Positions 8,500-57,644 of a stretch of 57,644 bases of DNA are shown here, piece by piece; positions within the stretch are counted from its first letter, which is position 1, and every line of letters begins with the position of its first letter. The notes under the pieces were generated by a model. That model worked only from the letters and a program-made list of their open reading frames with translations. It did no database searches and had not been told where the DNA came from. The stretch is taken from positions 1 to 57,644 of the forward strand of contig QPGO01000032.1 of the NCBI GenBank assembly GCA_008632985.1, in the 5' to 3' direction. A program made the translations under genes and the position numbers. The stretch comes from Psammoneis japonica. Lineage: Eukaryota.

Positions 8500-8739
8500 A
8501 GATGAGTATAATGACGATAGACTATATATGCTAGCTCTAGACCTAGAGAATGTTAAGGAAGATACCTAATAGTTTTTGCAATGAATGGAGATAGCCCGCC
8601 CACCGCCCGCGTTGCTTCCGGCGTTTTTCAACCGCGGAAAGGACCTTGTGCTTACCGCGCGACCGCCGAAGATAGAAGCGCGAAGCGGAGAGCCCACAAT
8701 GGCCTCATTCATCTCAAAAGTGCCGCAGAAGCAGCGACA

Positions 8740-32699: not shown

Positions 32700-34990
32700 C
32701 GTCCGTGAACGTCCGCGAAGCGAAGTTTCTCTCGCCACATTTTTGGGCCGGTGGAGCTTTTTTTTTTTCAGCACAGTGCTGCCCTGCCCTGATGCTGTGG
32801 TGGCAACTCAGCTCTCTTGATGCAAGCAGAGCAGCAAGATGCCGGACTGAGAAGGGGAGCATCAGGAAATTGTGGGGTCCAAGGAGTTGGGGGCAAGAAC
32901 ATGGCCAAAAGCAAAGATGGGCCAGCACCACATGGGAAAAAGACTGAAGCGAGAGAGGGGAGTCTGCAGCAGTCAAGTCATCCATGTGACTCCAACAGGG
33001 TGTGCCTTTTCTGTTTTTTCTTCATTTCAACCAGATGTTTGCTTCAAAACATGTCAAGTTGTGTTGACATGTTTGCCACACTGAGCCCACCTTTTTGTTT
33101 TTGAGATGTGCCACACAGACAGCGTCAGCTGAAGAGCTTCCAACACTTGTTGCAGAAGTGTGGCCTCTCATGTTTGCCTCAAAACATGTCAAGTTGTGTT
33201 GACATGTGGTGCCAGACTGAGCCTGCCTTTGAATTTCTGGCATGTGGTGCCAGATGGCATCAGTTTTTTTTTGGCACAGTTGCTCACCTTTTGCCATGGT
33301 GCCCTTTGCTGCATGTGCACACACTGTGCTGCTTGGCCAATTTCTTGACATTGCTGGGCTGAGAGGATTTCCAAGCTGCTGGCCACAGCAGTCCAGGTGG
33401 TGACTTCAAGGGATTTGAGCCTTGTGACAAAAATGGAAAATGTCATCAATTTCTTCACCTCTGTCTGTGTTTGAAAATGTGCTTGCCACGCAAGTCAAGG
33501 CTTTTGGAGTGACGCTTGTGCAGATGACTGGGGCTTTGACTTCAGTTTGTCAGTTTGCAATGTGAGCAGCTGGGGGGAGGGGGGGGGAGTGCACAGTGTA
33601 ACCTTTGCTGCTGGTGGTGACATGTGCTGCTTGGCTTCACAACAAGCAAGCATGGCTTCTTTTCACAAAAAACCACTGCAACAAGCTGCAGTTTGCAAGG
33701 GTTTGCTGCATGCAATTGCCCTGCTTCTTGTCTCCAAATTGACCTGACCACATTGCTCTTGGCTGCATTGTTCATGTTGCTGCTGTTGCGATTTGCTCAT
33801 GGCTTTGGCCACAAGTGATTGCAAGCCCTTGTTGTTTGACAAACGCTTCGCCGGCAACAACAACTGCAGCCAACTTTCATTCCATGTCTTTTCCATTGCG
33901 ATGTCAAACAAAATGCTGCAACAAGCTTCCACATCAAATGCATCACAACTCACAGCCATGCATCTGGACTTTTTTGGAGACACAAAAGGAGCTGCCCCAG
34001 CTTCCTTGAACAGTTGTTTTGTTGGCCCCTTTTTTGGCAGAGAGAACAAATGACATCAAATCTTGACATGTTGGTGCTCTTCCTCCATTTGCCCATGTGC
34101 AAGCACATTGGATGGAAAATTTCACAAGGTTGAAAGTCATTGCCTTCTGGCAGTGCAGAGATCATGACACAATGACCCCAGCCTGGCATCAGTGTGCAGC
34201 AGCATTTTCCACATGACCACCACCAATGCTGCACAAGCTCAGCTCATCCACAAGAGCAGCCACACCACACTCTCTTTTCCTCAGCATGTGGCAAAACAAA
34301 GTGGTGCTTTGCTCCTGCACATCTTTGCTTCTGCAACAGCATCATTTTGCAACAAGAGCCAAGGTGCTCTTTTGTGCAACTTGCTTGTTGTGTGGAGCCA
34401 GCTCTGCACACAAAAGGGGCAAGCACAGCCACTCGGCGGGATGTTGCCTGCTTCATTGGTGCACAGGCTCCACATGACAAGAGAATTTGTGCAGCAGATG
34501 GATTGTCAGGGCAACACACCCAAAAATGGGGTGCGAAGCTGCTGGACTGTTTGCCAACCTTGCCCTGGGAACTCAGCAGTGCTCACAACAACACATTTGA
34601 GGCCTCAGTCGGCCATGCCTGCTCAAGCCCAAATGTGTGTTGCTTTTTTCAATGGTGCAATGGGACAATTTGGGTCAGCTCCCTTTTGGAGAGCACTGCA
34701 AACATCTCTGCAGTTTCCATGCTCCAAATGAGCTTTTGGGAGTGACAGGCCAGCATCTTGGCCGGGTGTCAAAGACAGCCTGCCCCATCACATGATTGCT
34801 TTGCCATAGTTGTGACAACCAAGTGTGTGGTCTGTCTGATTGTCAAGCCAAGTCAAGCAGAAGTGTCAAGTGACACACCTCATGCCAGTTTGCAGTTTCA
34901 AGCTCTGGCAATCGCTGTTCGTGTCATCGCAGGCGTTGTCTCGGCGGTGCACCGACGTCGCACTGACAAGCTGACAACATCCACACATTT
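32700..34990. repeat. TpA/CpG-depleted degenerate repeat block containing duplicated hairpins
   Basis: About 2 TpA by eye (~33599, ~34807). The inverted repeat ACATGTCAA-gttgtg-TTGACATGT occurs twice (33047-33074, 33184-33207). Confidence 0.65.
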
Positions 34991-38800: not shown

Positions 38801-38834
38801 TTCTACCAAACTTGCGGTGACCAACACATTTCGG

Positions 38835-39810
38835 TTTCTCAAGGCAATGCACTCCCAAGGATGCCAATCTCAGCATTGAGAATCATGATAACATCCACGA
38901 GAGCGGCTGGGTTGACGTTCATGATAGTCCTTGAAGTTTGTTTCCGAGTGGTTGAAGATGCCCATGCATATTCAATTCAGAAATCAATCAACAATCCACT
39001 TTGTGAGAACTAATGCTGGCCCGAGCTAATTCCTATCGTGCTCGCTCCCGTCATCATGCTCATCATCGTCGCTATCATAATCACTATCAGAGTCATCTTC
39101 CCAGTCTTGATCCCCGTACACATATCCATGAACCATTTCACCTAGCGTGCGCATGCCAACCAATGTCAGACCGATTGTCCAGAGACGGTGTCGCCGAGCA
39201 CTCAAGGCGGCGGCAGTGACCCCAACAACAACTACAGGTTGTGGTATAGCACCACGAACGCTAGCCCATCGACACGCATAACTAGACACCAAGAGCAACG
39301 ATTGAATAATCGATCGAAACAGGGTTGTCATCATGTTGACACGTTCAGCACGATCCAGAAAGTTCTACCAATTTTTAGAGAGAGCAACCGTGAGTGTACT
39401 GAGAAGCGACCCTTGTCATTACAGGGCTCGACAAGGAATCTTTCCCATGCGACTTACATCAAACGTCAGTCTGTTTCCGCTTGCGGTCCTTCCAAAGAGA
39501 ACAGATACAATATTTCCCTCCTCCTCCCAGAAAGGTACCTCATCTTCCCTGCTTTTGCCCGTCTTTTGGGATGGGTGAGTGCGCTTTCGCTTTGCCTTGT
39601 GTTTCTTATTCTTTCCGGGGTATCGACTATTGTACAAAAACATGGGATCGTCCTTGTCTTTGGCGTTTTCGTATTGCTTCTTTTGAAACGACAGCTCGCG
39701 CTCAAAGCTATCGTAAACTTGATCGTCCGTGTGAATTCCCATTACAGAGTCCAATCGTTTCGATAAGCGATCTCTCCAGTGACGAGGTTTCTTCGGCTTG
39801 CCGGATTCAC
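38835..39810. repeat. Copy 2 of the local segmental duplication
   Basis: Begins with a truncated copy of the MVP-like 3' end (tttctcaaggcaatgc...gtccttgaagt). Confidence 0.85.
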
Positions 39811-41456
39811 TGGTGCGAGATGTCGTTTCTTCGGGTCCCCACAAGACGTTCTCTGCTGCATTCGCAATGTATTCACCGAATCGATCCAAACTATCTGGTT
39901 CTGGCTTGACATTGCCGTACGGTGAGTAAATGCGTTTTCGTTTCTTCTTGGCTGTTCTTTCGTCTTGTCGTGGTGACTTTGGCTCTTCTAAAGAAGTATG
40001 CGTGGTTTGTGTAGAGGCGTCCTTTGTCTTGGGTTTGCCTGTGGACTTTCCGTCTAGACTCTTCGGAAACGACACTGTGTCCTGTGACTTTGGCGGCAGC
40101 CGTAATGAGGGCTGTTCTTTTTGCCCGACCGCGTTTCTTGTCTGTCGCTGGTCTTGGCGTGTCCGGGATTGCCTCTGTCGTGTATGAGCATTTGAGTATG
40201 TATGTTGTGCGTCGTATGGCCGAGGTCTCGGAGATGGACGACGACGACGCGGTTGTGCCGACTGTTGACGCGGCGGTATTCTTTCTACATTCTTGACTTC
40301 ACCATCCACATCAATAACAGCCGCCGTTACATCAATGGGCTCGTCTGCACTACGGTCGACCGTGTGTTTCTTGACATAGTACCAGTCCGGTTCTCGAATC
40401 AAGCCGTCGTCGCTGTCTTGGTGGCCGCCTTCCTCCTCCCACCATTCCTTTGCTTGATTGGTAACTCGTCTTGCCTTCTTGACGGCTCGCTCTGCCACCT
40501 TGGACAATCGACTGGACAGGTGCGTGTTGCTGGCAACTTTGAAACGCGGCGAGGCAAGTCTTGCGCCGTTTGCTTGGCGTTCGATGTCTTGTCCATGACG
40601 ATGTGGAGAGGCGTCTTGTTGGATTCCAATCGCATCTTGCGCTTTTGTTGTCGACGTCTCCGGCTCAACTCTTGCTGCTGCTGTTCGTCCTTTTCTGATA
40701 TTCTGGCTGATATTGAGTATGTCATATCTTGTTTTTGCTTGGTTTGGTCTTAGCTGCGTTTTTCGAGACTGGTGCACTAGATCTTCCAACATGGCACGTG
40801 TTGCTGTTGGTGGGTACACAACACCTCGTTCATCCAGCTCATCCAGCAGTTGAGGTATTGGAACTCGAGGCGAAATTACTGGTTTTGAATTTTGCTCTGC
40901 GCTGTTACGTACGGGCACCTCGGGTGGTATTGATGGCACCGCAGTGTCCTTGTTTTTCAGGAGTGCCTCCAGCTCGGCACGCGAAGCGGTTGGAGGATAT
41001 TCGATACCCCGGCAATCTAAGTCATCTAAAATCTCCTTGATTGGTATTTTCTTTATAGTCTGATGCGAAGAAGCGGCCTGTCTGCTTTGACGAACAGAGT
41101 CTCTAGCTCTGCACGTGTCACGGTAGGTTCGTATCGAATTCCTCGTTCCTCCAATTCCTGCAGGAGTTGCTGAATGGAATTTTCTTTGTTTCGAATTCCT
41201 TAGCTGCATTCTCGTCCGACACTGACATTAACAATGTTTGTCGTTGACTCGGTCTAGTGTGTACATAAACACAGCCGCCACGATCACCAATTATTGTTTC
41301 CTGGCGGACATTGCATTTCCTGCGACACAAGCATGAACGAATTCCTCTGTGCCGGATTGACGCGTTGTTTCTCGGTGATGGAACCCACGCCAAAATAACG
41401 CTCCTTTCCAACATAAGCAACACAAGCAATACCTTTAATAGTTCGAAGCTCACCAT
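39026..41456 (-). CDS. Hypothetical protein with signal peptide, two HeH/LEM-like repeats and C-terminal TM segments
   Basis: MVSFELLKVLLVLLML...LAWVP leader. Repeats IKEILDDLDCRGIEYPPTASRAELEALL and IPQLLDELDERGVVYPPTATRAMLEDLV. Intron at about 39365-39457. Confidence 0.7.
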
Positions 41457-43381: not shown

Positions 43382-45722
43382 TTAACGGTCCACTCTTTCG
43401 ACGTCGATACAAGCCGAACCGATACTAGGGATTCTTCTGTATGATTCCAAGACAGTCTTAGCTACGGCTTGAGCCATCTTGACGGGCACCGCATTTCCAA
43501 GCTGCCTTCTCTGCTGCTGCCTTGAGCCATAGAGGACAAAGCTGTCCGGAAAAGAAAACAACCGTGCAATTTCACGACATGTCAACTTCCTATCGAGCTT
43601 GTAATGCCACACGTCTTCGCTTGTGCAAATGGTAGTTGACGGACTGTTGCCATCAATTCGTTTGTCGTCGGTACTCATTTCCTGCTCACTGCTTTCGTGG
43701 TTGTGAACAATCCCGTTTCCCAGCTTGACAAGCCCACCGCGATGTGGAGGTGTCGTCTCCAAGTCCACCAAAGCCTGTTGAACCGTCACATGATGCTTCG
43801 GTGTTCCTGGTCCGTGGGTTTCCTGTGGTCGCTTGGGAAGAGGGAATCCAGCTTTTGCGATGAACAAGAACAACCGAAAACGCGTTTGCGGATCACCGTA
43901 GTCAGCAGCGCAAAGCTTCGTTACTCGGACCTGGTAATTCATAGCGAGCAAATCGCAAACTAGTTTGATCAAGTGTTCATGGTTCGATTCTCTAAGCATG
44001 CCCGAGACATTCTCAAAGGTAGCTGTCGTTGGCTGAAAATGTTCTACAGCTCGAGACAGACAATGGCAAAGAATATTGTTTTCTTCGCGATCGTCATCAG
44101 ACCCAAGAGTGTTTGCAATTGAGTAGCCTTGACAAGGGGAACTTGCATGTATATGGTCGGGCTCCTGAGAACGAAAAGGGACAAGGAGGTAAGCAGTGCA
44201 TCAAACAACACACAATGAAGCAGGCACTTTAGATACCTCTTGGGATGGATAGCCTGGCTGGCCATTTTCGCAATCTTCGAGAAATTCGTTCGAGTCGCGA
44301 GCGTAAGCGATTCCTCGAGTAGCAAGAGAAGCTTGTAAGTTGACGTCCTTGTCTACCATCCAGCTTGCACCGAAGCCTTCTCGCTCGAAACCGAGGCTCA
44401 TGCCGCCTACGCCTGAGAACAACTCGAGCACTACATGGATATTGAGATGGTCAGATTTCGACGACATGAACGGTAGCACTCCAAAGACTTTACTCGCTTC
44501 ACTCACCTCTGGGCTTCTGTACGGCGCACTGTTTCATTACTTCCTTATCAATTTTTGTCTCGAACGCAAAGTCAAAGTTTGACTGTCTGTGAGTTTCAGA
44601 AGTGAACTGAAAACCTGAAGGAGTGCGCTGCTCTAGTGCTTCCGCCAAATCAAAATAGTCCGGAAACGTTTGTTTACGCAAGGTTCTCGCTTCCTCAATT
44701 ACAGCAGGGTTAAGATCCTCGTCTCGAACCCACGTAAGCTGCTTGTAATCGCCTTGCCATTTTATCTTGTATTCCCATTGACCTTGACGCCGCTGTCTGC
44801 AATCAACGACTTCTTCGACTTCGTATACATCAGAATGGTCTGTAGTCAAATCGTGTCTCGTACCTTGAATATCACTCGAATCTGCAGTGTCCCAATTTGG
44901 ATTCTCTGCCTTTTCCTTCGTCTTGCGTTTCTTTGTTTTCCCGGCGCCGTCAGTGTCACTTGTATCCATAGCGTCGCGTTTTACACTCTTGCCCCTTTTG
45001 GGTTTTGGTAGTATTTTTGTTTTCCTGGTGGCTGCAGTGCCGGTTGCAGCTGCAGAGTCTCGTTTTACACTCTTGACCTTTTTGTTTGCCGCAAGCTTGC
45101 TTGTTTTCGCTGCATCCTTCTTTTCTTTCGGCGGTCGGCGTCGACGCAAGAGATGACCCTCAGTAGCCGACGAATCATGCACCTCGTCACATGGAAGAAT
45201 AGCATATTCACCGAGGACGCCTTTCCTTACACCGTCCCATCTAACAAGCACCTCGTCCGCAGCCACAACGAGGGGCAAGCGCAAGGCGGCCAAATCCACT
45301 GTAGAAGGATCGACGACAGCACAAGTATAGCCCTGTTTTGTCGTAAGCACTGCGCCGGGCGTGAAGGAACTTTTCTTAGATTTGAATTCTTGAATTGATG
45401 CAACAGCCTTGATATCTTCAATCTTTACTTTCTTTCTCTTCTTTGCTTGCTTCTTTCTTGACTTGAGAGGCTCTTGTTTGATTTTCTTTTGCTCAAACCC
45501 TAGCTTCGTTGGGGGTTGCCTCTGTCGGGACGAGCGACTGTTCAACGATGGAAGAACCACCGCACTCTCCTGTACGACATTAATTGTGTTTCTCCACGGA
45601 GCCTCTTTGTACTTGACAAGCATCTGACCAGGTTCAAGGTCATACTCCTTGTGCAAAGCAGGATCCACAGTGATAGCCGGGTGAGCACTTTCTACGAGTA
45701 CTTCAGTGCCATGATCCATCAT
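43382..45722 (-). CDS. Chromodomain-containing C5 cytosine DNA methyltransferase, RID/DNMT4-like; exons 44507-45722, 44237-44430, 43382-44164
   Basis: Chromodomain YEVEEVVD...EYKIKWQGDYKQLTWV. Motif I LELFSGVGG, IV HASSPCQGYS, VI FENVSG, VIII PQTRFR, IX RKLTCREIARL, X QLGNAVP. Introns 44431-44506 and 44165-44236 give an intact frame. Confidence 0.92.
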
Positions 45723-46029
45723 GGTGTTTCGGCTTGGCGTAAGATAGGAAAGATACTCAGCACTCCAGTAGCAGGCTTATCGGTAGTTCCCCAGTTACTA
45801 GTCACTCAATGACAGAGCGCAGAGCGCGAGATGGGAAACGCAAATTCAACCCCCGCCCTCTGACTGAGCCGCACCGTTAGCTACAACAAGGAGCGTAGCG
45901 TATCTTTTTAGTTTATGGTCCGGTCACGTAGGTAGCTCCGAGTTTATGAAAAAAAAAGAGAGGAAAAGGAGGAGGGGAGGAGAAAACGCCATACGTTCAA
46001 TTCGCACGTACGACGGACAGACGTTTTAC

Positions 46030-48090
46030 GACATTCATGCTGCTGCAACAAAAACAAACCAACCATGATGCGGCAACAACCGATGTTTGATCTTGCCACC
46101 AAACCTTTTCCTGCCAAAAATGTCAATGCATGACATCCACATTTTGCTGTGACAAGTGTGTCAATTGCAAGAGACGTGAGAGAAAACCCAAAAATGAACA
46201 ACAAAAGCTCCTTCCTGCAGCTGTGCCGCTGCCCAGACTGCACATTTTCACAACTTGCACAGCAACAGCCAATGTTCTGTTTTTGCTGCCAAACCTTTCC
46301 TGCCAAAATTGCCAATGATCAGCATGCTGTGCTGTTTCTCTTTGGCAAGTGCGCCAGCGAAAAGAGAGGCACAGCAGGAAAAAACCCAGGCAAGCGGGGC
46401 AAACGCAAAGGCCCTTTGCGCGGTTTTGCCACAAGGCTCAGGCTCTCAGCTCTCACAGCTTGTGCACTTCAATTTGAGTTTGCACTTGGCAGATTGAAGG
46501 CTGACTTTCAGCAATCAGGTGTCAGGTTCTGCTGTCACACTGTGCCTGTGAGCAGCAGCGCCAAGGTTGCTTGGCAATCCAGCAGCCAGCTCTCTGTGAA
46601 AAATGGTTGCAAAAGGAAAGGATCTGCCTGCTGCAACACAAGAGACAAGCAATCAAGAGTGCATTTTCCTGTGGTTTGGTGTCAAAGAAAATGTGCTTGT
46701 TTGTGGTGCTGTGCTGGCAAGGCCAGCTGCGAGGCACAGCCCAGCCAGCCAGCCGCCGCCAGCACAGCCAGTGGGTGCTGGCCTCCTCTCATGATGTTGG
46801 CATTGGGCCACATCATGCAGCTGTGCCACCACAGTCAAATGACATTTCTGCCAGCTCTGCATGAAAAAATGATTGCAAAAGGAAAGGAGCCATCTGCGGC
46901 GCAAGAGACAAGCAGCCGCCAAGCTCCCCCCATGGCGGCGGGCTGCTTGAAGTGCTGCAGCAGCTGTGCTCTGTGCTGGCCATCCAACAGAGATGAGTGG
47001 ACCACAATGTTGGCTGCAAGATGAAAGGACTGTGTTGGTCACAACTGGCGCCAAACAAGTGCGGGAAATTTTCCTTTCATCCGAGGGAATTTGGGGGCTG
47101 CTGAGAGAGGAGCCCCCCCCATGACCCAAAACCCCGCTCATGCTCACATCTTGATTTCCCCCTCATTGGCTTGTCAAATGAAGAAAACAATGAGGCTTTC
47201 CTCTTTTGTTTTGTTGCACAATGTGCACCAGATTTGCCACACCAATTTGAGCTTTTGTGGGCTTGCTTGGAGCAGATCACACTTGAAGAGACCATGGAAG
47301 CACATCTTTTTGTCCTTGAGAAAGTGCCTCCCAATGGTGCCTGCCTCACTCACTGAGTGCATCACACAAAAAGAGGTGTTTTGGCAGCCAAAGGCTCTGT
47401 GCAAATCAACTTCTAGATGAGTGGTTCATGATGGTTGCAACCACGCATTGAATCACTGATCTGTTTTTTCCTTTTCTCATTTTCTTGCATTTCCTTGTCT
47501 AGGAAATTCAGCGCCAAATGAGGAATTCCCTGTGATCGAAAACCTGTGACAACGCGGTGATTGGCACGCTGACAATGATTCCGTCTGTGGCGTCGCTGTC
47601 AAATTTGCACTGGAAAACCATGTGGGTTTCTGCTTGTCGCTGTCAAAATGGAATTGTGTCATTGTCAAATTCTGCACAAACCCTGGTGCATTTCCTACAC
47701 AGTTTATAAAGAGCTGCCTGCGCAGCTGGACGATTGCCGTTTCCTGCACGAGGCATCGAAAAAAATGTGGCCGCAACGTGAGCAAAGACTTCACAACACA
47801 TAATTTGCGTGTGCAGAGTTAAAGACACATTTTTCGTGCATTTAGTTGTTCAAACATGAATTTACTGTGCAAGGTTTTGGCGGGAAATTTTGTGTTAGAA
47901 TTGGTTCCTCCTTTGTGGTGGGAACTCTGGACACGAAGTGAGGAGGTGTGGAACCCGGGCTGGTTTGGATTGCCATGCGCGCGAGCATCAAATTTTAGAG
48001 CTTTGATCTTTACTTGCCACCAATCATTTTTTAAAAAATTCTCACGCTTAAATGATGGGTTCGCAATCAATCAATGTGCGACGTAATTCT
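46030..48090. repeat. TpA-depleted repeat block with internal imperfect direct repeats
   Basis: 46070-46130 resembles 46260-46320, and 46587-46652 resembles 46852-46915. Almost no TpA before ~47400. Confidence 0.6.
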
Positions 48091-48428
48091 ATGTTTATGT
48101 TTTAATGTTATGTCAAAAAATGGCGATTTAATTATTGTATAAGTGTATGGATATATTATAATAAGAGACGTGGGTTTCCCCTTCTTTTTGATAATTCTGG
48201 TGTGATCGTTCTATGGTAGATGATAAGAGAACTGTCCTGACGTTGTGTGTCACTGGTTGCTGAGTGTGTCTGTCATTGTAATAATGTGCTGACATCGATT
48301 TATTAGATTAGACCCTTTGTTTTCTATCGGTTGTTGCCGGGCACGCCTGCAAGCCCGCGCACAAAGCTTGGAACATTTTCCAAAATGTAGAAATGATTCC
48401 CACATGCAGTGTCAAAATGTTCCATGTG

Positions 48429-51400
48429 TCAATTGGACTGCAAAATGTCGTCACACTGTTCGTTGGTGAAGCATGTGACACTTTTTCCTTCCATCAACCG
48501 GAGCAGGGTGTCATGCCCGTCCGGCAGTCTGCACAGACTTAAATCTCTCTTCAGCGGTTGCCGAAGATGCAGACCATTTCTGGTCTTGACCCTGGAGAGC
48601 ATGACATGTGCCCAGTTTTGTGCACAGCTCCAGCTGTGTACAAACACATTGTGACACCGCTTCCTTGAAGCTTGTGTCCTGCAGTCGCATTGTTTGTTGT
48701 GAATGGCAATTGGGTCACTTTCAGTCCGAGCACATGTTTCTCTTTTTCCTCAGCTGTCATCTGTTGGGTTGGGTCCTTCAAACAGGCTTTGAAAGTGGAA
48801 GACTTAGGCTTGAGCAAAAAGGTGGGTGGATCGATGCTTTTGTTGCTGTGCTTGAGTTCTACATTGTCCACCTGGGATGCTGTGACACCTCGAATGGATG
48901 TTCCACAGTCCAAGACCACTTGCGATGAATGTTCTCCTGGTTTCAGCACGACTTTTGCCACAGTTGCTTGTGTTCCATTCGCAATGCCATTTGCCACATT
49001 TTCATTGCACGGGATCACAACTCTACATCCCTTGTGTGTTCGTAACACTGGATCAAGCCTGCCAGATTGCATTTCCACATCGCTCTCTCCACAGTTTTTC
49101 CAGAATGTTTTGTGCACCGGGAAAGGCCTGTGCTGTCTTGCTCCGTCACGCACTTGTAAATCGTCACTGAAAATGGCTAGAGAGTCCAAGACTTCTCCAT
49201 CTCTTTGGTGCAGTCTCTTGGTCCTTTCCTCAAACAAGGCTGTGTTGATGGAGTCTCTTTCTTTGTTTCTGCATGGTGCACATTTGATGTTCTCTGGCAG
49301 TTGCTGACCCTTTCTTGCTGCTCTTTCATTGATTTTGTCGACATCTTCGAGAGTCGCTTCGCCATCTCTAAATCGTTTTAGCAAACTGCCCCATTCTGGA
49401 TCCTCACTGAATCTGTGCATCCCATGCAACTGGATGTGGCAGTTCACCCATTCCTGGAATTCGGCACAGGTCTCCTTGTGTGGAGGGTGCATTCCGTGTC
49501 CAACTGGCTCGAGTTGTCTTAGGTCCCCTGCAAACACCATGTCCACACCCCCACAAGGCCTGTCTAAATTGGATTTCACGACAGATAGATTAGCATGTAA
49601 TTTTTCTAAATCTCTTCTGCAAGCAAATGACATTTCGTCGACAATCAGCAGACGAGTGTCACTCCAGCTTTCCATTTGTGTTTCTGTTGTTTCTTTTTTC
49701 CTGTTTGGATGGGCAACTCTGTGAATGGTGTCTCCTTTCAGAATTGTCGCTGCAACTCTGGTCATGGCAGTGACAGCAATTGTTTGTGCAGTGAATGGTC
49801 GTTCAATTAAAGAGCAACATTCTCTTGCGTGCAAAACAACAAGATCGATGACAGTGGATTTGCCACTTCCTCCTGCTCCATGCAAGAAACAAATTAACTG
49901 TGTGCCTCTTCGTTCTCGCACTTCAACTAACTTGGCTAATCTCCTGCATTCTTTGTTAAATTCGTGTCCAATTCCTCCTCTTACATTGCCACTTGCTTGT
50001 TCTCCCAGAGCGTCTTTGCAGCACGTCAAAATGAAAGTTCCTGCCATGACTTCAAAAGCACGACTTTGATGTGGGTCTAGCTTGGCTTTTTTTGACCAAT
50101 CAACTGAGCTTTTGGCTGAGCCGTCAGCTTCAAGGACATCAACGGCTTCTTCCGAATTAGTTGTGTCTTGGAAAGATCGTCGAATGCGTCCAGTCTTGGT
50201 CAGCAACACTCGAACTACATCTCGTTTCCTAATTTGAGGCATGGGTTCTTCATCTGCTTGCATGCTGTTTTCATTGTCTTCTTCATTGACCTCAATTTCT
50301 GGTGGCTCCATTGTTTCTACGACAGGGACCGAATTGATGACAGTGTTTTGATCTGAAGAAGCCATGCACATGCATGCCAAGTGCTGACATCCTGCAAGGT
50401 GACTTCCCTTCTGTCTGGTTTGTTTGCCACTTAAATTCGTGGGTGCGGCTGCTTCATCATTCGCTTCTGTCCCGTCTTCGTGTTCATGGTTCACCAATTC
50501 ATCTAGAAGAGCATCAAGCATTTGTCCTTGCAAAGCCGTTCCAATGTCGTCTTCGGTGTCGCTTTCGCACCTTGCACTAAATTCATCATCGTCCGATGCA
50601 TGCTCACGGGTGGTGCGTTTGAGAAAATCTGATGTGCTTTTTAATCGCAGACAATTGGATTTTGCATCTTGCAGATTTTGCAAGAATTTCAGATTTCTTC
50701 AGTGACGATTTCTCTCTCCACCGCTTGACGGAATGATTGCAAGCAGGTTTGATCGAACAGTCGCACATCTGAGGCAGTCCGACATGATGTGAACAAAGCA
50801 AGAGCTGGCTTGCAACATGGCTCTTTTTCAGGCAAGGATGGTGCATTGCTGTCCATGAGAGAACTGCCGAATTTTGCTGCATCTGGGAAATCACACTGGT
50901 GTGTCTTAACCAAGCGAGTGTCTTGTCTTGGTTTGATGCCTTGCAGAAATCTGTTTGATCTTCTTTGACAAGATGGATGGGTGCAGGTGGAGTTGTCGAA
51001 TTGGCAAAGAAGACCTTCATTTTTCTTGGCATTTNNNNNNNNNNNNNNNNNNNNNNNNNNNNNNNNNNNNNNNNNNNNNNNNNNNNNNNNNNNNNNNNNN
51101 NNNNNNNNNNNNNNNNNNNNNNNNNNNNNNNNNNNNNNNNNNNNNNNNNNNNNNNNNNNNNNNNNNNNNNNNNNNNNNNNNNNNNNNNNNNNNNNNNNNN
51201 NNNNNNNNNNNNNNNNNNNNNNNNNNNNNNNNNNNNNNNNNNNNNNNNNNNNNNNNNNNNNNNNNNNNNNNNNNNNNNNNNNNNNNNNNNNNNNNNNNNN
51301 NNNNNNNNNNNNNNNNNNNNNNNNNNNNNNNNNNNNNNNNNNNNNNNNNNNNNNNNNNNNNNNNNNNNNNNNNNNNNNNNNNNNNNNNNNNNNNNNNNNN

Positions 51401-54297
51401 NNNNNNNNNNNNNNNNNNNNNNNNNNNNNNNNNNNNNNNNNNNNNNNNNNNNNNNNNNNNNNNNNNNNNNNNNNNNNNNNNNNNNNNNNNNNNNNNNNNN
51501 NNNNNNNNNNNNNNNNNNNNNNNNNNNNNNNNNNNNNNNNNNNNNNNNNNNNNNNNNNNNNNNNNNNNNNNNNNNNNNNNNNNNNNNNNNNNNNNNNNNN
51601 NNNNNNNNNNNNNNNNNNNNNNNNNNNNNNNNNNNNNNNNNNNNNNNNNNNNNNNNNNNNNNNNNNNNNNNNNNNNNNNNNNNNNNNNNNNNNNNNNNNN
51701 NNNNNNNNNNNNNNNNNNNNNNNNNNNNNNNNNNNNNNNNNNNNNNNNNNNNNNNNNNNNNNNNNNNNNNNNNNNNNNNNNNNNNNNNNNNNNNNNNNNN
51801 NNNNNNNNNNNNNNNNNNNNNNNNNNNNNNNNNNNNNNNNNNNNNNNNNNNNNNNNNNNNNNNNNNNNNNNNNNNNNNNNNNNNNNNNNNNNNNNNNNNN
51901 NNNNNNNNNNNNNNNNNNNNNNNNNNNNNNNNNNNNNNNNNNNNNNNNNNNNNNNNNNNNNNNNNNNNNNNNNNNNGCCACAAACTCTGGGTTTGTCCAG
52001 TGTTTAGTGCAATGAGGGCAATGTGCGAACATGCCGTTTTTTGATTTCTGACCATGCTTGTGCCTTGGGCATCGAAGCTGCTGATCACTGACTGTTTTAG
52101 GCACAGTGCGACAGGCAAGATTGACAGTGCAATCATGATCAAAAGTCTCTGTGATGGAAAGTCGAGTGTAATCCTCGCTGCATGTCAACCCAGTTGTGCA
52201 GATCCGACTGGTCAGTTTGGATGGTGTTCTTTTACCATCACGCCTAAAATCTCTGTTGTCAGAATGCAGATTGTCTCTTGCTGTGTTCATGTCTTCAAAC
52301 CATGCCTGAATGTGACCGTGTGCCGAGAGTCTACCTTGTTCTTCCATTGCAGCCATGAAAGCGGAGGGTCTCCCCATGTAGAACTCAAAATCTTCTCTGG
52401 GTGAATTCCTTTTTAAGTCCCATCCCATTGCTTCTTCTATGACGATTTCCAACAACATTTCGAATGCAAAAGCCATGACACCCGGGTGCTCCACACGAAG
52501 CTCGTTTCTTGCCTCAGCCTTTTCGGTTGGTTCTTCATCCGACATTTCTGTCACATCTCTGCCTTTGTCGACGAGCATGTCCGTGTGAATTTGAGCTAAA
52601 AAGGAACTGGCATCATCGGGGCTTGTCGTTAAAAATGCTCCAGGTTGTCCAAAGTGGCGTTGGCAGGTTTCAGCATTTCTTCTCATTTTTTTTGCTGCTT
52701 CATTTGCATGTGGAACAGATGCCGACACCACATCCACTGCACTTAAGAAACGATGTCCCAATGCGCAATTCCTGCGTTCACCGGTCTGTCTGTCACACAT
52801 GGCACGGTCGACGTCGTCTTGTGTCAGTTCATTTGAGAATTGTCTGGCTTGATTTTTGTCTCTTGCTTTCCATCCAGCACTGTGCACCATTCGTTGCTTC
52901 ACAGTCAGATTGCACAGGGTCAGAACAAAGAGTTGCTTGTGGAAATGGGGCTGAGAAATGCGGGCCAAGTGATCTGCGCAATGTGCTAGATTTGTGCAGT
53001 CGGCGAGACTCCCGTCTTCTTTCATTCTTGTTTCATTGATGCCGCCACGCCCACAAGGAAATTGCAGCAAGCAAGCATTCACCAGGTTGTTGTCCTCAAA
53101 GTCACTGACTGATTCTTTCAAAAGATCAGCTTTGAATTCAATGTCAAAACCGCTTGCAGCTGCATCGTGCACCAAGTCTTTGAAGCTGTCTAAATTGCGT
53201 TGTCCACCAGTTGTTGAAGAAACGGTGCCATCGGGGAAATGAACACTGCAGGACTCCGTGGTTTCAACGTTTGCATTTTCGCTTTCGTCCAAACTGCTGT
53301 TGTCCACTAAAACTGGATTCTGTAAATTACTTCGCACTTCCTCTAGATCGATGTCTTGATTCATCCAATTCTCGCGGTGATGGACAAGCCATTCCAGTGC
53401 TCTCATTACACAGTGAGTCCTGATTTTGTTCTTTTGTCTGGCCATTTGCCTTTGCTCTGGTGTCATTTTGCCGGACACCAACACAACCACATTTTGATGA
53501 AGGTTCAACACGTCAAAGTGCACAATGGTGCGGGCGATGCTCTTCATGTTTATCTTGCAACAGGAAAGACTGCCTTGCAGTTTCTTCTGTTTGCCACCGA
53601 CAAAACTGAAGCAGCAGCCATGTGTTTTCACAGGTGTCAACAAAGCCAGTTCTGCTTCGGCAAGACACGATAATTCAGGTGGTGGTGTTCCAAAACAGCA
53701 ATTATTTGCCATTGCGCATGGAGGCACAGAAGTGGTGCAGAGACTCCTTTTACAAGGCCTGCAACAAGTGAATCCTTCAGACCTTCTGTTGTCGTTCGGA
53801 ACAACACATCGAGCTCTTGGCAAAAGTGACAGGTCGGAAATCCATCGGCAATCCCGTGGAATGTGGTCGTCATCAATGCGACAACAATCGTGTGGGTCTT
53901 CCGACACTTGGTTCCATTCAGATGGAGTTGACAGGTGTCTGGCTTCTTTCAATTTATTGACAGAAAGTCGAGCAGTCTGAGACGGTTTCAACAATCTGTC
54001 ACACACCAAACAAACCCAAGGGACGCACTCGTTTCCATTCCTGCAACAAAGCTTCTCAAAACGTCTGTTCACATTGTCTCGGTGCCTGGTGTTGCTGTCA
54101 TCCACAAGACAGCTTGCAACGGCAGGCTCACACTGCGCAAAGACAAGTTGAACCAACAACGCAGCAACAGGTGCACACCAGATAACACGACGACCCATGA
54201 GACTTGTGATGAGAACAATCTGAGTAAAGTCAACATGATCAACAGATGGTGGACAATCCGACCTGCAACTGGTGTTCCCAGTCACTGCAGGGTCCAC
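48429..54297 (-). pseudogene. Helitron RepHel (HUH endonuclease plus PIF1 helicase); frameshifted, with assembly gap 51035-51976
   Basis: Rep motifs PGAFLTTSP and EEQGRLSAHGH. Helicase motifs GAGGSGKS, LIVDEMS, AGDLRQLEPV, MHRF, GHKLQG, HVMLSRV. Confidence 0.92.
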
Positions 54298-55182
54298 TTC
54301 CAGTGTTTTCTGGACTCAGCAGACGAGTGTGTGTAACAAATCTTCAGCATGTCAAGAGTGCAATGAACAATGATGAATGCGACATGACAAATCTGCAACC
54401 GGTGTTTCCCGGTCTCTGCAGACTCTGCGACCAGTGCATTCTGGTCCCCGCAGATGTTGTCTCAGCTGCAACTGGTGGTGCTTTGTGTCGAGATGGCTGG
54501 AGAGTCTTCCTTTGCAAAAGTTCAGATCTCATGAAAAATGAGGGTTGAAGCAAACTTCCGTGCATGATTGACGGACCCGACACGTTGTAGATCGCTCGTC
54601 TTGATTTACTTGACACGTCATCGTTTGCTCGTGCGTTCTACATTGGGATGCACTGCTGACAGCAGCGGCATCACACCGGTGAGGTTATGAACGTCAGCGG
54701 GAACGATGTCTTGTGGAAGTTCAATGTGCGATGATGCATCTCGTAGTTGAAGTCGGTTCTACCCACTGCGACTGTACGACGTTTGTGCGACTGTGACGCC
54801 TCACACCTCGATCTGCTGCCAAGTGTAACAGATGTGTGTTGTTGCAGTGTGTCCTCATGATCGGCACGTTCCTTTCATCCCACTTGTGAATCATGTCATC
54901 TCGCAATGCATGCACTGACATTGAATCATTCGAGTGAAAAGATTCCAAATTTTAGAAAGATTTCCAGCCACACCTTTCTTTCGCACAATTTTACGTAGCC
55001 TGTCATGCTGGTCCTTCTTTCCTGCGTCTCGCAGTGGAAATTGTACGCAACATGAGTGACGTGCCCACACGACCGTTGCTGCACGACCGCTGCTGTGTCA
55101 GCTCTTCGTGGGAGCTCAGTGACTGGTGACCTTGTTTTTGGCTCACAATTTTGTGCCAATCAACAACGAAAGACTTTGTAAG

Positions 55183-56052
55183 ATGGCCCGTAAAACGCAA
55201 GGTTCTACCAAGAAGTTGGGCGCTTCTCCAACCAAGAAACAGCAGTCTCCCATCAAGTTTTCTGCTTCCCTCATGAAAAAAATTACCCCTGCCAAGACCG
55301 TTGGTCTCAATGATGAAGATGTGAAGGCCGAAGATTTGTTGGCCAAGACGGGCATCAAGGTTACGAAGGTGTCTGGTGGTGCCGCAAGCGACACTGCCAG
55401 CAAGGATGCTAATCTACGAGTGGCCAAGATCACCGAAGGCAGCAAGCAAGGCTTGGCATTCCGTTTGGAGCCCAAGGGGACAGGTGACCCCTCCGGTGTG
55501 TGGGCAGAGAAAGTGTTTTTTGATGCCATGCGCTCAGGCAAGTCTTGGGTTGCCAATTCAGGGTTTGTGCCGCACACCAAGCAGTGGCACCACAACAACG
55601 CATCGATGAAGAATGGAAGGGATTGCTCCATTCGTCTCTTCGTGATTTACGTCGAGGAGACCCCGTCCGATGAACAAGTCAAGATGTTAGCCAAGTGCAT
55701 TGCTGCCAAGTTGAACAACGACCCGGACGACAACACTGCCGTTCACATTGAGGACGACTGCATCTGGATCCAGGATGGTGTGTGGGCCGATGTGATTGGC
55801 AACGACCAGGCTTTAACGGAACTCCATAAGGAGGGTGGTGACTTCCACTTAGGATGGCATGAGCAGCACAAGAACTTGCTTCACAGTTGCCTTCGAACGG
55901 GAACCTTGACCATGGATTTCTGCCGCATGATTGGTGCTCCAGCAGACGAAGCGGCTGAGGATCTTGATGAGGAAGATGGGGTGTTGCACGATGACCAGAT
56001 GTCTGATGACGAGGAGAACGACTTGCTGCTTTGCGACAGCGACGAGAACTGA
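55183..56052 (+). CDS. Unknown protein, divergent from RepHel; probable Helitron accessory or captured gene
   Basis: Open 289-aa frame with a Lys-rich N-terminus and acidic tail, inside the TpA-depleted domain. Only one Tyr. Confidence 0.55.
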   Translation: MARKTQGSTKKLGASPTKKQQSPIKFSASLMKKITPAKTVGLNDEDVKAEDLLAKTGIKVTKVSGGAASDTASKDANLRVAKITEGSKQGLAFRLEPKGTGDPSGVWAEKVFFDAMRSGKSWVANSGFVPHTKQWHHNNASMKNGRDCSIRLFVIYVEETPSDEQVKMLAKCIAAKLNNDPDDNTAVHIEDDCIWIQDGVWADVIGNDQALTELHKEGGDFHLGWHEQHKNLLHSCLRTGTLTMDFCRMIGAPADEAAEDLDEEDGVLHDDQMSDDEENDLLLCDSDEN

Positions 56053-56463
56053 GACATTTTTCCCCGGTCTGGCCTCCGCTCTTTAGTGCGCAGTGCAGCA
56101 TGTAAATGTTTAGTCCATTTGGTCAAACATTTTTTTTATTTACTTGGCAAGCAAGACTTGCATTGCGTGCGACTGTGGCAAATCGTGCACATTTAAATTA
56201 TGCACTTAGCAGTCATTGAATGCTGCATTCGTAGCCGGCTCGTTTTCTGCATGATTTCAAAATCAATTGGCACTCGTGTCTCAATTGTTGTGCACATCTC
56301 TTTTCTGACAGTGATTTCAAAATGTCATGTGTTTGGCCTGCCTGACTTGCATTTCCGGTTGTTTCCGCAAAGTCTGCTTTTCAAACTTTGTGCCAGTGCA
56401 CAATTCACCAAATGAGACTGAGTTGCCAATGCACGGCCTCAGCATGGCAGTGAGCCAGTGATG

Positions 56464-56750
56464 AAGCCATCCCACTAAGAGACCCAGCCCGGTGTTCACA
56501 CCTCAGACCCATCTCCTCTGGAGACCAGTCCACTGTGGCACCAGTGTCGCGGCCAATCTCATTGGGTCACTTTTTGCTGCTCCTTGCNNNNNNNNNNNNN
56601 NNNNNNNNNNNNNNNNNNNNNNNNNNNNNNNNNNNAGCCATCCCACTAAGAGACCCAGCCCGGCATTCATGCCTCAGACCCATCTCCTCTGGAGACCAGT
56701 CCACTGTGGCACCAGTGTTGTGGTTGATCTCATTGGGTCACATTCTGCTG
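56464..56750. repeat. Direct repeat, two copies of about 115 bp flanking an N gap
   Basis: agccatcccactaagagacccagcccgg...ctcattgggtcac occurs twice. Confidence 0.85.
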
Positions 56751-57038
56751 GTGCTTGGTGGTCACAGGGTGCAGTTGGCAATTGCAGGGTGCAGGGCACA
56801 GCAAATGCAGGGTGCGGCAAGAACCGCACAACTCACCGGTGCCATGAAAATGTGATGCATCAACACGGCAAGGGACACTGATGAAGTGGTCCCACACAAG
56901 GACCCAGCACACTGTGCCTTTCCCTGTCACATGTGTTTTGAGTGTGCAGTGGCATTGCTGCATGCTGCAGTTGTGGCCGTTGCTGCCGGAGGCTGGGAAA
57001 ATTTTCTTTTTTTTTGAACAAATCCCCCCAACATGTGA

Positions 57039-57290
57039 CACGTGCAAATCCTGCATGTCGTTCCTCACAACCCCTGTCAATGGCTCACTCGTTCGTGTGT
57101 GCAACACATGTGCGGAGTGCAACAGGGAAAAGATTCCTCTGTACGGTGCACAGCACAGCACTGGTTTAACATGTGATGCAGTGCTGCACTGCACGTGCAA
57201 ATCCTGCAGGTCGTTCCTCACAACCCCTGTCAATGGCTTGTTCGTTCGTGTGTGCAACACACACACGGAGTGCAACAGGGAAAAGATTCA
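57039..57290. repeat. Direct repeat, two copies of about 100 bp
   Basis: cacgtgcaaatcctgca...gcaacagggaaaagattc at ~57039 and ~57192. Confidence 0.9.
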
Positions 57291-57644
57291 TGCGGTGAAC
57301 CACAGCATTGGTTGATGCACGACACTGGATGAAAAAAAAATGGCACCACAAGATGTGCCATGAGTCACCCCAATCAGTCCGGCAAAGACAATGCCACCCT
57401 TGCGTCGCTTGGGAAAATGGTCGCTGTGAAAACAAGCTCCAATTGTGGGGGCAGCTTCATTCACACCTACAAGGCTCAGACGCCTTCTTCGTCGAGAGTT
57501 GCGGCACTGGCACATTTGATAAACAGAGAACCCGTAGCTAACGAAGGCAAGTGGTCTGCTGAAAAGATGATGCATCGAGCCAACAAAAAGGCTGCAAAGA
57601 TCGAAAGTCTAGAAGAACTGCCTGCACAGCTTGCGCGTCATTTC

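What the first reader, a model, noticed from the sequence alone, without database searches (positions are those of the whole stretch)
56464..57290. Paired repeat copies differ by TG versus CA at homologous sites
Seen: ggTGttcaCAcc versus ggCAttcaTGcc (56.49/56.66 kb); ggctCAct versus ggctTGtt; acacaTGTGcgg versus acacaCACAcgg (57.1/57.26 kb); also gcCAcc versus gcTGcc (46.1/46.29 kb). TG<->CA needs two transitions unless both copies derive from a TA or CG ancestor mutated on opposite strands. This indicates independent, near-saturating mutation after duplication. It does not by itself distinguish TA from CG ancestry.
Basis: seen in the sequence. Interest (0 to 1): 0.72.

Follow-up and report, generated by a model that had tools for sequence, protein, structure and literature searches.

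The report
TA-erasing mutation scars in diatom repeats
Two short neighbouring duplicated stretches beside a dead Helitron transposon in a diatom genome differ mainly by TG-versus-CA swaps, most likely because each copy separately lost its TA steps to a local mutation process so far described only once, in an unrelated alga.

Summary
Every quoted TG/CA contrast is at its stated place. Such double transitions are far above chance: 6 in the two pairs against 0.24 expected, reached by 0 of 20,000 simulations.

The pairs lie in an 11.5-kb island (about 46030-57480) where TA is almost gone. In 56250-57480 there are 5 TA (O/E 0.07), CG O/E is 0.39 and CA/TG O/E is 1.9. Neighbouring genes have TA O/E 0.55 and CG 0.97.

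- In the Helitron inside the island, 0 of 19 conserved tyrosines (TAY) survive: 13 Cys, 5 His, 1 Phe. Twelve of 13 conserved CGN arginines survive.
- Between copies, CG is mostly kept: 31 CG/CG against 8 half-changed columns.
- An independent sequencing run shows the same transitions-only pattern (44:2). It has 6 TA-versus-TG/CA sites and 2 CG-versus-TG/CA sites.

CpG decay is a minor contributor here. It cannot be excluded for pair D1 or for the older 46-kb and 33-kb blocks.

The host is a diatom. The closest known case is TpA hypermutation in Bigelowiella natans (2026 preprint). This scan had already noted the same process on eight other pieces of this genome.

The parts
56465..56586 (.). 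Repeat D1, copy 1 (ends at the N run)
   Evidence: 89% identical to copy 2. Carries TG 56493-4, CA 56499-500, CG 56548 and 56550, CCA 56555-7.
56588..56635 (.). 48-N scaffold gap between the D1 copies
   Evidence: Bridged by one contig of run X1 (record 3, 56541-56653).
56636..56757 (.). Repeat D1, copy 2
   Evidence: Carries CA 56664-5, TG 56670-1, TG/TG where copy 1 has CG/CG, and TTG where copy 1 has CCA.
57039..57136 (.). Repeat D2, copy 1 (weaker similarity runs on to 57166)
   Evidence: Carries CAC 57086-8 and TGTG 57109-12.
57192..57289 (.). Repeat D2, copy 2 (weaker similarity runs on to 57313)
   Evidence: Carries TGT 57239-41 and CACA 57262-5. A contig of run X1 has CA at 57239-40, CA for CG at 57247-8, and CACA for TGTG at 57251-4.
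46030..57480 (.). TA-depleted island that holds the repeats, the Helitron and its flanks
   Evidence: TA O/E 0.20, CG 0.59, CA 1.64, TG 1.57. Left edge after the TA at 46027; right edge near 57468-57520.
52009..54297 (-). Helitron Rep part (DUF6570 + Helitron_like_N), dead copy; the ORF runs on into the 942-N gap
   Evidence: Tyr 0.3%. Of 11 conserved Tyr columns, 9 are Cys, 1 His, 1 Phe.
48551..50683 (-). Helitron PIF1-type helicase part, in a different frame from the Rep part
   Evidence: of 8 conserved Tyr columns, 4 are Cys and 4 His. 13 of 13 conserved Arg are kept.
55123..56052 (+). ORF of unknown family inside the island, 0.4 kb from D1
   Evidence: one homolog (30% identity). Its 8 aligned Tyr face C, C, C, H, H, F, L, M in the window.
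46073..46128 (.). Older pair, copy 1 (partner at 46262-46317), with GCCACC / GCTGCC
   Evidence: The block 46030-48000 has TA O/E 0.09 and CG 0.40.
46262..46317 (.). Older pair, copy 2
33035..33128 (.). Further island pair (partner at 33170-33263) with 3 TG/CA columns
   Evidence: The island 33-35 kb has TA O/E 0.01-0.03 and CG 0.14-0.22.

Best explanation
The TG/CA columns are the scars of a local mutation process that rewrites TpA to TpG or CpA. It makes A:T to G:C transitions, with the outcome set by which strand's adenine is hit.

The process acted separately and almost to completion on each copy of two small tandem duplications. It also acted separately on the version of this region seen in another sequencing run. 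Where both copies lost the same ancestral TA, half the time they ended as TG in one and CA in the other.

The process is confined to a transposon-bearing island, made up of a dead Helitron and its flanks, and spares the neighbouring genes. Ordinary CpG decay runs alongside it at a much lower rate in this part of the island.

Shown:
- the island-restricted loss of TA;
- the near-exclusive transitions;
- the Tyr-to-Cys/His read-out;
- the retention of CG in the same copies;
- TA-versus-TG/CA polymorphism.

Inferred:
- that the four quoted columns themselves were TA, since they were not polarised one by one;
- that the chemistry is adenine deamination in DNA;
- that targeting goes by chromatin state or element type.
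For: (1) Composition. In 56250-57480 there are 5 TA (O/E 0.07), 31 CG (0.39), 144 CA (1.88) and 134 TG (1.89). Non-island DNA of the window has TA 0.55, CG 0.97, CA 1.18, TG 1.17.

(2) Coding read-out in the same island.
- Conserved Tyr columns: 0 of 11 kept in Rep (9 Cys, 1 His, 1 Phe) and 0 of 8 in the helicase (4 Cys, 4 His).
- Conserved Arg columns: 16 of 18 and 13 of 13 kept. These include 12 CGN codons kept, against 1 CAG that could be a decayed CGG.
- For the Rep part alone, Fisher p = 0.00016.

(3) Reversion test. Turning each TG/CA back to TA moves the protein towards the homolog consensus at 35 + 28 = 63 sites. Turning it back to CG does so at 11 + 5 = 16 sites. In the unmutated ABC-transporter gene of the same window the figures are 0 and 6, with Tyr 17/17 and Arg 32/32 kept.

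(4) Copy comparisons.
- Five island pairs, summed alignment length 447: TA/TA 1, TA/x 0, CG/CG 6, CG/x 6, TG/CA 11.
- Window against run X1, 795 columns in 6 segments: TA/TA 4, TA/x 6, CG/CG 25, CG/x 2, TG/CA 14.
- With one rate for all CG sites, these counts predict about 0.75 + 0.02 CG-derived TG/CA columns out of 25 (my arithmetic: x squared over 8 times the kept count).

(5) Polymorphic share in X1: 6 of 10 TA columns against 2 of 27 CG columns (Fisher p = 0.002).

(6) Run X1 differs from the window by 44 transitions and 2 transversions. It shows TA or TTA where the window has CA or CCA (56448, 56455-6). It shows TG/CA where the window keeps TA (57143, 57469, 57520, 57535).

(7) The ORF at 55123-56052: 8 Tyr of its only homolog face 3 Cys, 2 His, F, L and M, and none faces Tyr.

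(8) Precedent: TpA to TpG/CpA hypermutation measured in mutation-accumulation lines of Bigelowiella natans (abstract and passages).
Against: - No third, less-mutated copy of D1 or D2 was found. The four quoted columns are therefore assigned by regional statistics, not by direct polarisation.
- CpG loss is real in the island (CG O/E 0.39 in 56250-57480). D1 itself has two CG/TG columns and only one shared CG. For D1 alone, CG ancestry of some of its three TG/CA columns is therefore not excluded.
- If the ancestral sequence had gene-like composition, the missing CG would be about as numerous as the missing TA (my arithmetic). The CG share of all TG/CA excess could then reach roughly a third.
- A one-rate model also underpredicts for TA: about 1 of 25 from the surviving TA counts. 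Both readings therefore need a burst that left few survivors.
- Extra transitions beside the YR step (CCA/TTG, CAC/TGT, CCA/TTA, TTG/CCA) show the process is not strictly TpA-limited.
- The X1 data are Logan contigs, and 6 further differences were not listed.
Confidence: 0.75

Rival explanations
1. Ordinary CpG decay. The columns were methylated CG, and 5-methylcytosine deaminated on the top strand in one copy (giving TG) and on the bottom strand in the other (giving CA).
For: - CG is depleted in the island: O/E 0.39 in 56250-57480 and 0.14-0.40 in the 33-35 kb and 46-48 kb blocks.
- D1 shows CG/TG twice.
- The island pairs at 33 and 46 kb have 4 CG/x columns and no shared CG.
- One X1 contig has CG where the window has TG (56959). 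Another has CA where the window has CG (57248).
- Diatom transposons are a known target of cytosine methylation (passages of PMC9998398).
Against: - It cannot explain the loss of TA (5 left in 1183 bases) or the Tyr-to-Cys/His changes at 18 of 19 conserved columns.
- In D2 and the X1 segments CG is kept: 5 + 25 shared against 0 + 2 half-changed, while 3 + 14 TG/CA columns occur.
- CGN arginine codons of the Helitron are kept in 12 of 13 columns.
- Reversion to CG gains 16 sites, against about 12 expected from the control's background rate (6 per 2.2 kb).
Confidence: 0.13
2. Assembly or sequencing artefact. The D1 'copies' would be overlapping contig ends or haplotypes placed on either side of a gap, and the TG/CA contrasts would be base-calling errors.
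For: D1 copy 1 ends exactly at the 48-N run and copy 2 begins right after it.
Against: - A contig of an independent run spans the gap with the scaffold's spacing (record 3).
- D2 has no gap between its copies.
- The same TG/CA contrasts appear as two contigs of equal depth (74 and 74.2) over 57113-57223 in that run (records 6 and 7).
- The pattern is confined to TA-poor islands and is mirrored in the protein read-outs.
Confidence: 0.02
3. RIP-like cytosine mutation running the other way. On this reading CA and TG are ancestral and TA is the product, as in fungal repeat-induced point mutation.
For: - The differences are transitions at YR steps in duplicated DNA.
- Some copies show TA where others show CA or TG.
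Against: - RIP enriches TpA, whereas here TA is nearly absent.
- Conserved Tyr codons have become Cys/His, which fixes the direction as TA to TG/CA.
- Non-island duplicates of 86-92% identity keep their TA.
Confidence: 0.02
4. RNA-level A-to-I hyperediting (ADAR-like) fixed into DNA by reverse transcription.
For: - Clusters of A-to-G changes with a 5' T/A preference resemble ADAR neighbour preferences (recalled, not tested).
- Extra hits occur at TAA/ATA-type contexts.
Against: - The targets here are a Helitron (a DNA transposon), non-coding tandem duplicates and their flanks.
- Both strands are hit within a few bases of each other.
- The copies diverged in place after a local duplication.
Confidence: 0.03

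Closest known systems
TpA hypermutation of integrated viral DNA in Bigelowiella natans (Mettrop et al., bioRxiv 10.64898/2026.01.13.699255; abstract and passages read)
   Same: - Almost only A-to-G and T-to-C changes falling on TpA, giving TpG or CpA depending on the strand.
- Confined to foreign or mobile DNA within an otherwise normal genome.
- Long-term signature of TpA depletion with CpA+TpG enrichment in 1-kb windows.
- TpA-poor coding sequences enriched for transposon domains.
   Different: - The host here is a diatom (a stramenopile), not a chlorarachniophyte.
- The target is a Helitron with non-coding tandem duplicates, not giant-virus or virophage inserts.
- Erasure is near-complete: TA O/E is 0.07-0.2, against 0.45 reported for the viral insert.
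- CG is also lowered here, and some hits fall beside rather than on TpA.
- No mutation rate was measured here. The preprint does not mention diatoms (0 occurrences).
Repeat-induced point mutation (RIP) of Neurospora and other fungi (features recalled; abstracts of PMC2621366 and PMC3318451 seen in listings)
   Same: Dense transitions at a preferred dinucleotide that kill repeated or mobile DNA. Both copies of a duplication are hit independently.
   Different: - The direction is opposite: RIP makes C-to-T changes at CpA and creates TpA, whereas here TpA is destroyed.
- Duplication alone does not trigger the process here, since non-island duplicates of 86-92% identity are untouched.
- No link to meiosis can be tested.
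CpG decay by deamination of 5-methylcytosine
   Same: Also yields TG on one strand and CA on the other, so two decayed copies can show TG against CA. It is probably at work in the same islands.
   Different: It leaves TpA alone and would remove CGN arginine codons rather than tyrosine codons. Here the reverse is seen.
APOBEC/ADAR-type editing of retroelements and viruses in animals (recalled)
   Same: Enzyme-driven clusters of transitions used against mobile or foreign nucleic acid.
   Different: Those enzymes act on C in single-stranded DNA or on A in double-stranded RNA. Here the changes are A:T to G:C in resident chromosomal DNA on both strands, with no sign of strand-coordinated runs (runs test p = 0.44).

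Membership tests
TpA-to-TpG/CpA hypermutation (Bigelowiella type) | The changes are almost only A:T-to-G:C transitions. | tested here: met
   - 44 transitions to 2 transversions between the window and run X1.
- D1 10:3 and D2 7:1.
- The direction is fixed by Tyr (TAY) to Cys (TGY) or His (CAY) at 18 of 19 conserved columns.
TpA-to-TpG/CpA hypermutation (Bigelowiella type) | The changes fall only on TpA. | tested here: inconclusive
   - TA is the erased class (O/E 0.07).
- Reversion to TA gains 63 sites, against 16 for CG.
- However, CCA/TTG, CAC/TGT, CCA/TTA and TTG/CCA show extra transitions beside the TpA, and CG is also lowered.
TpA-to-TpG/CpA hypermutation (Bigelowiella type) | The process is restricted to foreign or mobile DNA, with neighbouring genes spared. 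| tested here: met
   - Islands at 1-1.4, 17-18, 29-30, 33-35 and 46-57.5 kb contrast with genes at TA O/E 0.5-0.75.
- The ABC-transporter control keeps Tyr 17/17.
- A Helitron lies inside the island.
TpA-to-TpG/CpA hypermutation (Bigelowiella type) | An elevated de novo rate measured in mutation-accumulation lines. | not testable with these tools
   Only standing differences between copies and between the window and one run are available.
CpG decay | CG is the depleted, fast-changing class and TA is unaffected. | tested here: not met
   - 6 of 10 TA columns are polymorphic, against 2 of 27 CG columns.
- 12 of 13 CGN Arg codons are kept, against 0 of 19 Tyr codons.
- CG is nevertheless lowered (O/E 0.39), so this process contributes.
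Fungal RIP | C-to-T at CpA that enriches TpA, triggered by duplication. | tested here: not met
   TpA is depleted, not enriched. Non-island duplicates of 86-92% identity are unaffected.
Helitron (context of the island) | A Rep (HUH) domain followed by a PIF1-type helicase on one strand. | tested here: met
   - Pfam finds DUF6570 + Helitron_like_N at 52000-54297(-) and PIF1 at 48551-50683(-).
- The helicase ORF aligns to residues ~1158-1836 of ~1900-residue homologs.
- The element's termini were not identified.

The most novel reading that the evidence does not exclude
Diatoms may carry an active, locally targeted DNA adenine-editing defence. It would erase TpA from transposon-bearing chromatin, work separately on each copy and perhaps each allele in vegetative cells, and still be running. 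Three observations point that way.
- Two equally deep variants in one run differ by 12 transitions in 51 bases.
- The edge of the island differs between the window and that run.
- At that edge the process creeps into the adjoining open reading frame.

If so, the TG/CA columns could serve as a built-in clock and strand recorder for that system.
Probability: 0.45. Interest if true: 0.85.

Novelty: new member of a known kind. Interest (0 to 1): 0.6.

Why it matters
A mutation process that rewrites TpA in chosen stretches of chromosomal DNA is known from a single 2026 preprint on a chlorarachniophyte.

Finding its signature near saturation in a diatom Helitron island would have three consequences.
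- The process would be shared between, or convergent in, distant algal lineages (stramenopiles and rhizarians).
- It would kill DNA transposons as well as viral inserts.
- It would act independently on duplicated copies, so paired repeats and alleles could be used to time it and to read its strand choice.

In practice it also warns annotators. TA-free islands give long spurious ORFs because TAA and TAG stops are rare, and they give Tyr-free, Cys/His-rich pseudo-proteins. TG/CA contrasts in such genomes should not be read as CpG decay by default.

Tried and rejected
- **Further copies of D1/D2.** None was found by any route.
  - Two scans of metagenome contigs with purine/pyrimidine-degenerate cores: 0 hits.
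  - The scan's own index: 0 look-alikes.
  - The window in plain code and in purine/pyrimidine code: only the known pairs.
  - No whole genome is held for this window.
- **Runs X2 and X3.** Nothing was laid. This says nothing either way.
- **The AT-down / GC-up argument.** ApT O/E is 0.79 and GpC 1.26 in islands. I expected this to separate TA erasure from CpG decay. Simulation on the window's own non-island DNA gives only 0.91-0.94 and 1.04-1.07 under either process, so the argument does not discriminate and is dropped.
- **Single-stranded Helitron intermediate.** A sense-strand bias would have hinted at this target. The Rep part shows 12 Cys: 2 His at Tyr sites, but the helicase part shows 6: 6, and a runs test is not significant (p = 0.44). 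Not supported.
- **One-rate models of site loss.** They underpredict TG/CA columns for TA as well as for CG (from one search counts). They are used only to compare the two classes.
- **RNA genes or known domains in the repeats.**
  - Rfam: 0 matches in the window.
  - Pfam on ORFs across D1/D2 and the flanks: nothing below E = 0.05.
  - Tandem Repeats Finder does not report D1/D2.
- **Literature on TpA erasure in diatoms.** Six full-text searches listed no such paper. Only listings were seen, apart from the Bigelowiella preprint (abstract and passages) and PMC9998398 (passages). The preprint's supplements were not seen.

Full report
**1. What is there**

The window is a eukaryotic scaffold with two N runs, 51035-51976 and 56588-56635. 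Its ABC-transporter gene (8581-10791) has its best named relatives in diatoms: Fragilaria crotonensis and Seminavis robusta at 69-70% identity, plus Ditylum, Attheya, Nitzschia and others. No whole genome is held for it.

They lie in two pairs of direct repeats.
- D1: 56465-56586 and 56636-56757, 89% identity, spacing 171.
- D2: 57039-57136 and 57192-57289, 92% identity, spacing 153.
- The 46.1/46.29 kb contrast lies in a third, older pair, 46073-46128 / 46262-46317.

In purine/pyrimidine code, D1 is identical over 106 nt and D2 over 80 nt. So every difference in these cores is a transition.

**2. Is it more than chance?**

I kept each pair's numbers of transitions and transversions and placed them at random.
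- D1+D2: 0.24 TG<->CA columns expected, 6 observed (0 of 20,000 simulations reach 6).
- All five island pairs: 0.76 expected, 11 observed (0 of 20,000).

Controls outside the islands behave differently.
- Duplicates of similar divergence at 37.1-37.9 / 38.8-39.8 kb (92% and 86% identity) show 0 and 1 such columns and keep 7-8 shared TA.
- A 66%-identical gene pair at 4.6/6.8 kb shows 6 among 512 differences.

**3. Is it an artefact?**

D1 flanks the 48-N gap exactly, which at first looked like overlapping contig ends. One public run (coded X1; Logan contigs; 35% of the sampled words) holds this region.

Laid at 80% likeness, it gave the following.
- One 114-nt contig runs from 56541 to 56653, across the gap, with the scaffold's spacing.
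- Two 111-nt contigs of equal depth (74 and 74.2) cover 57113-57223. One is identical to the window. The other differs by 12 transitions.

Overall the run differs from the window by 44 transitions and 2 transversions. Of the 40 listed positions, 28 form 14 adjacent TG<->CA doubles. Six further differences were not listed.

The pattern is therefore biological. It also separates versions of this region (alleles, strains or paralogs; I cannot tell which).

**4. Context**

Dinucleotide mapping shows sharply bounded islands.
- Islands lie at 1-1.4, 17-18, 29-30, 33-35 and 46.0-57.5 kb. There TA O/E is 0.01-0.26 and CA/TG O/E is 1.4-2.2.
- Genes have TA O/E 0.5-0.75 and CG about 1.
- Pooled, islands have TA 0.12, CG 0.45, CA 1.74, TG 1.67. 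The rest has 0.55, 0.97, 1.18, 1.17.

The finding sits in the sub-island 56250-57480. Among its 1183 called bases there are 5 TA (O/E 0.07), 31 CG (0.39), 144 CA and 134 TG (1.88 and 1.89).

The island contains a dead Helitron on the minus strand.
- Rep part (DUF6570 + Helitron_like_N) at 52000-54297.
- PIF1-type helicase part at 48551-50683. It aligns to residues ~1158-1836 of ~1900-residue homologs.

The D1/D2 units match no Pfam or Rfam family.

**5. TA or CG ancestry?**

*(a) Coding read-out.* I aligned the Rep part with 25 homologs. Four of these (P0002, P0010, P0024, P0025) are themselves Tyr-poor (0.0-1.9% Tyr), and I left them out of the consensus. I aligned the helicase part with 24 of the best 30 of the 150 listed homologs. 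A column counts as conserved when at least 60% of homologs share the residue.

| Part | Conserved Tyr kept | What replaced Tyr | Conserved Arg kept |
|---|---|---|---|
| Rep | 0 of 11 | 9 Cys (TGY), 1 His (CAT), 1 Phe | 16 of 18 |
| Helicase | 0 of 8 | 4 Cys, 4 His | 13 of 13 |

Twelve CGN arginine codons are retained. One CAG could be a decayed CGG. For the Rep part alone, Tyr against CGN-Arg gives Fisher p = 0.00016.

*(b) Reversion test.* I turned each TG or CA back to TA, or back to CG. I then counted the sites where the protein moves towards the homolog consensus by at least 0.3 in column frequency.

| Sequence | Back to TA | Back to CG |
|---|---|---|
| Helitron (Rep + helicase) | 35 + 28 = 63 | 11 + 5 = 16 |
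| ABC-transporter control | 0 | 6 |

In the control, Tyr is kept at 17 of 17 columns and Arg at 32 of 32. Most of the CG gains are therefore background.

*(c) Copy comparisons.*

| Comparison | Columns | TA/TA | TA/x | CG/CG | CG/x | TG/CA |
|---|---|---|---|---|---|---|
| Five island pairs | 447 (summed alignment length, gaps included) | 1 | 0 | 6 | 6 | 11 |
| Window against X1 (6 segments) | 795 | 4 | 6 | 25 | 2 | 14 |

- If all CG sites decay at one rate, the expected number of CG-derived discordant columns is (CG/x) squared over 8 times CG/CG. That gives 0.75 + 0.02 of the 25 observed (my arithmetic).
- In X1, 6 of 10 TA-bearing columns are polymorphic, against 2 of 27 CG-bearing columns (Fisher p = 0.002).

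*(d) Single-step states.*
- X1 has TA or TTA where the window has CA or CCA (56448, 56455-6).
- X1 has TG/CA where the window keeps TA (57143, 57469, 57520, 57535).
- CG against TG/CA is seen twice (56959, 57248).

*(e) The ORF at 55123-56052*, 0.4 kb from D1, has one homolog. The homolog's 8 aligned Tyr face C, C, C, H, H, F, L and M.

**6. What speaks the other way**

- CG is lowered in the island.
- D1 has two CG/TG columns and only one shared CG. For D1 alone, a CG origin of some of its three discordant columns cannot be excluded.
- In the older 33-kb and 46-kb pairs no CG is shared (4 CG/x, 0 CG/CG). The GCCACC/GCTGCC column is therefore undecided.
- If the ancestral sequence had gene-like composition, the missing CG would be about as numerous as the missing TA. 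Simulation with 75% TA loss and 40% CG loss roughly reproduces the island values. Up to about a third of all TG/CA excess could then be CG-derived.
- The one-rate estimate from surviving TA also underpredicts, giving about 1 of 25. Both readings therefore need a near-complete burst.
- No third copy was found, so the four quoted columns are assigned by regional statistics.
- My estimate: most of these columns were TA. The figure is about 80-95% under one rate per class, and at least about 60% under the least favourable composition argument.

**7. Mechanism**

The most likely process is repeated A:T-to-G:C transition at TpA on either strand. It is confined to the transposon-bearing island and acts independently on each copy.
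- A hit on the top-strand adenine gives TG.
- A hit on the bottom-strand adenine gives CA.

Among sites lost in both copies, about half become discordant.

A rough consistency check for D1+D2 (220 columns; my arithmetic) runs as follows.
- Six discordant columns imply about 12 doubly mutated sites.
- The 39 concordant TG/TG + CA/CA columns match the sum of about 32 expected from the non-island density and about 6 concordant mutated sites.
- This suggests that nearly all of the erasure post-dates the duplications.

Further points on how the process behaves:
- Extra transitions next to the YR step (CCA/TTG, CAC/TGT, CCA/TTA, TTG/CCA) indicate it is TpA-preferring rather than TpA-exclusive.
- Strand choice is mixed at short range (runs test p = 0.44).
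- There is no consistent sense-strand bias: 12 Cys: 2 His in Rep against 6: 6 in the helicase.
- Duplication alone is not the trigger.
- Adenine deamination and chromatin targeting are inferences, borrowed from the proposal in the Bigelowiella preprint.

**8. Comparison with what is known**

The closest description is the 2026 preprint on Bigelowiella natans (abstract and passages read). It reports:
- mutation-accumulation lines with T/A-to-C/G changes only at TpA;
- the changes confined to integrated giant-virus and virophage DNA;
- genome-wide clusters that are TpA-poor and CpA+TpG-rich.

It has no occurrence of the word diatom.

Six full-text searches listed no paper describing this in diatoms (listings only).

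Fungal RIP runs in the opposite direction. CpG decay is a partial contributor.

Eight earlier notes of this scan describe the same TA erasure on other pieces of this genome. I used them as leads and tested the claim afresh here.

**9. Verdict**

The open TA-versus-CG question is resolved in favour of TA for the 56.4-57.3 kb pairs, at about 75% confidence. It remains undecided for the 46-kb column.

The case is a new member of a recently described kind. It is of moderate-to-high interest mainly as a diatom instance, and because paired copies record the independence and strand choice of the process.

Noticed in passing
window 48000-48350: A TA-rich, AT-rich patch (28 TA, O/E 0.84, GC 0.365) sits unmutated inside the TA-erased island. 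It lies between the end of the Helitron helicase ORF and the extreme 46.0-48.0 kb block. It may be a later insertion or a protected stretch.
   Followed up: partly
window 56084-56232: A small stretch that keeps 9 TA within the island, just after the ORF at 55123-56052.
   Followed up: no
proteins P0002, P0010, P0024 (homologs of window 52009-54297): Helitron Rep homologs from other unnamed metagenome contigs are themselves almost Tyr-free (0.0%, 1.0%, 0.7% Tyr) and rich in Cys and His. The same erasure seems to occur in other organisms or samples.
   Followed up: partly
window 57468-57540: At the right edge of the island the window keeps TA at 57468, 57520 and 57535. The only X1 contig laid there has TG or CA at these sites. 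In the ORF 57333-57644(+) these read as Y-to-C, I-to-T and V-to-A. The island edge therefore differs between versions and reaches into the adjoining reading frame.
   Followed up: partly
window 37112-37882 and 38832-39828: A local duplication (74-92% identity) outside any island keeps its TA and shows ordinary differences, including CG/TG and CG/CA. One sub-stretch has 5 TA/TG columns and 0 TA/CA columns, which is unexplained.
   Followed up: partly
window 4605-6299 and 6802-8492: A tandem pair of genes of unknown family (ORFs 4613-5791 and 6810-7961), 65% identical at the DNA level, with normal TA content.
   Followed up: no
window 44499-45722 (-): An ORF with a weak chromo-domain match (E = 2.4e-05, just under the Pfam cut-off) and normal TA content lies about 300 bases from the left edge of the island.
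   Followed up: no
window 52009-54297 vs 48551-50683: Strand choice of the erasure differs along the Helitron. Lost Tyr codons read 12 Cys: 2 His in the Rep part and 6: 6 in the helicase part.
   Followed up: partly
window 56768-56830: A run of GCAGGGTGC-like short repeats lies between D1 and D2. An X1 contig differs here by four TG/CA doubles.
   Followed up: no
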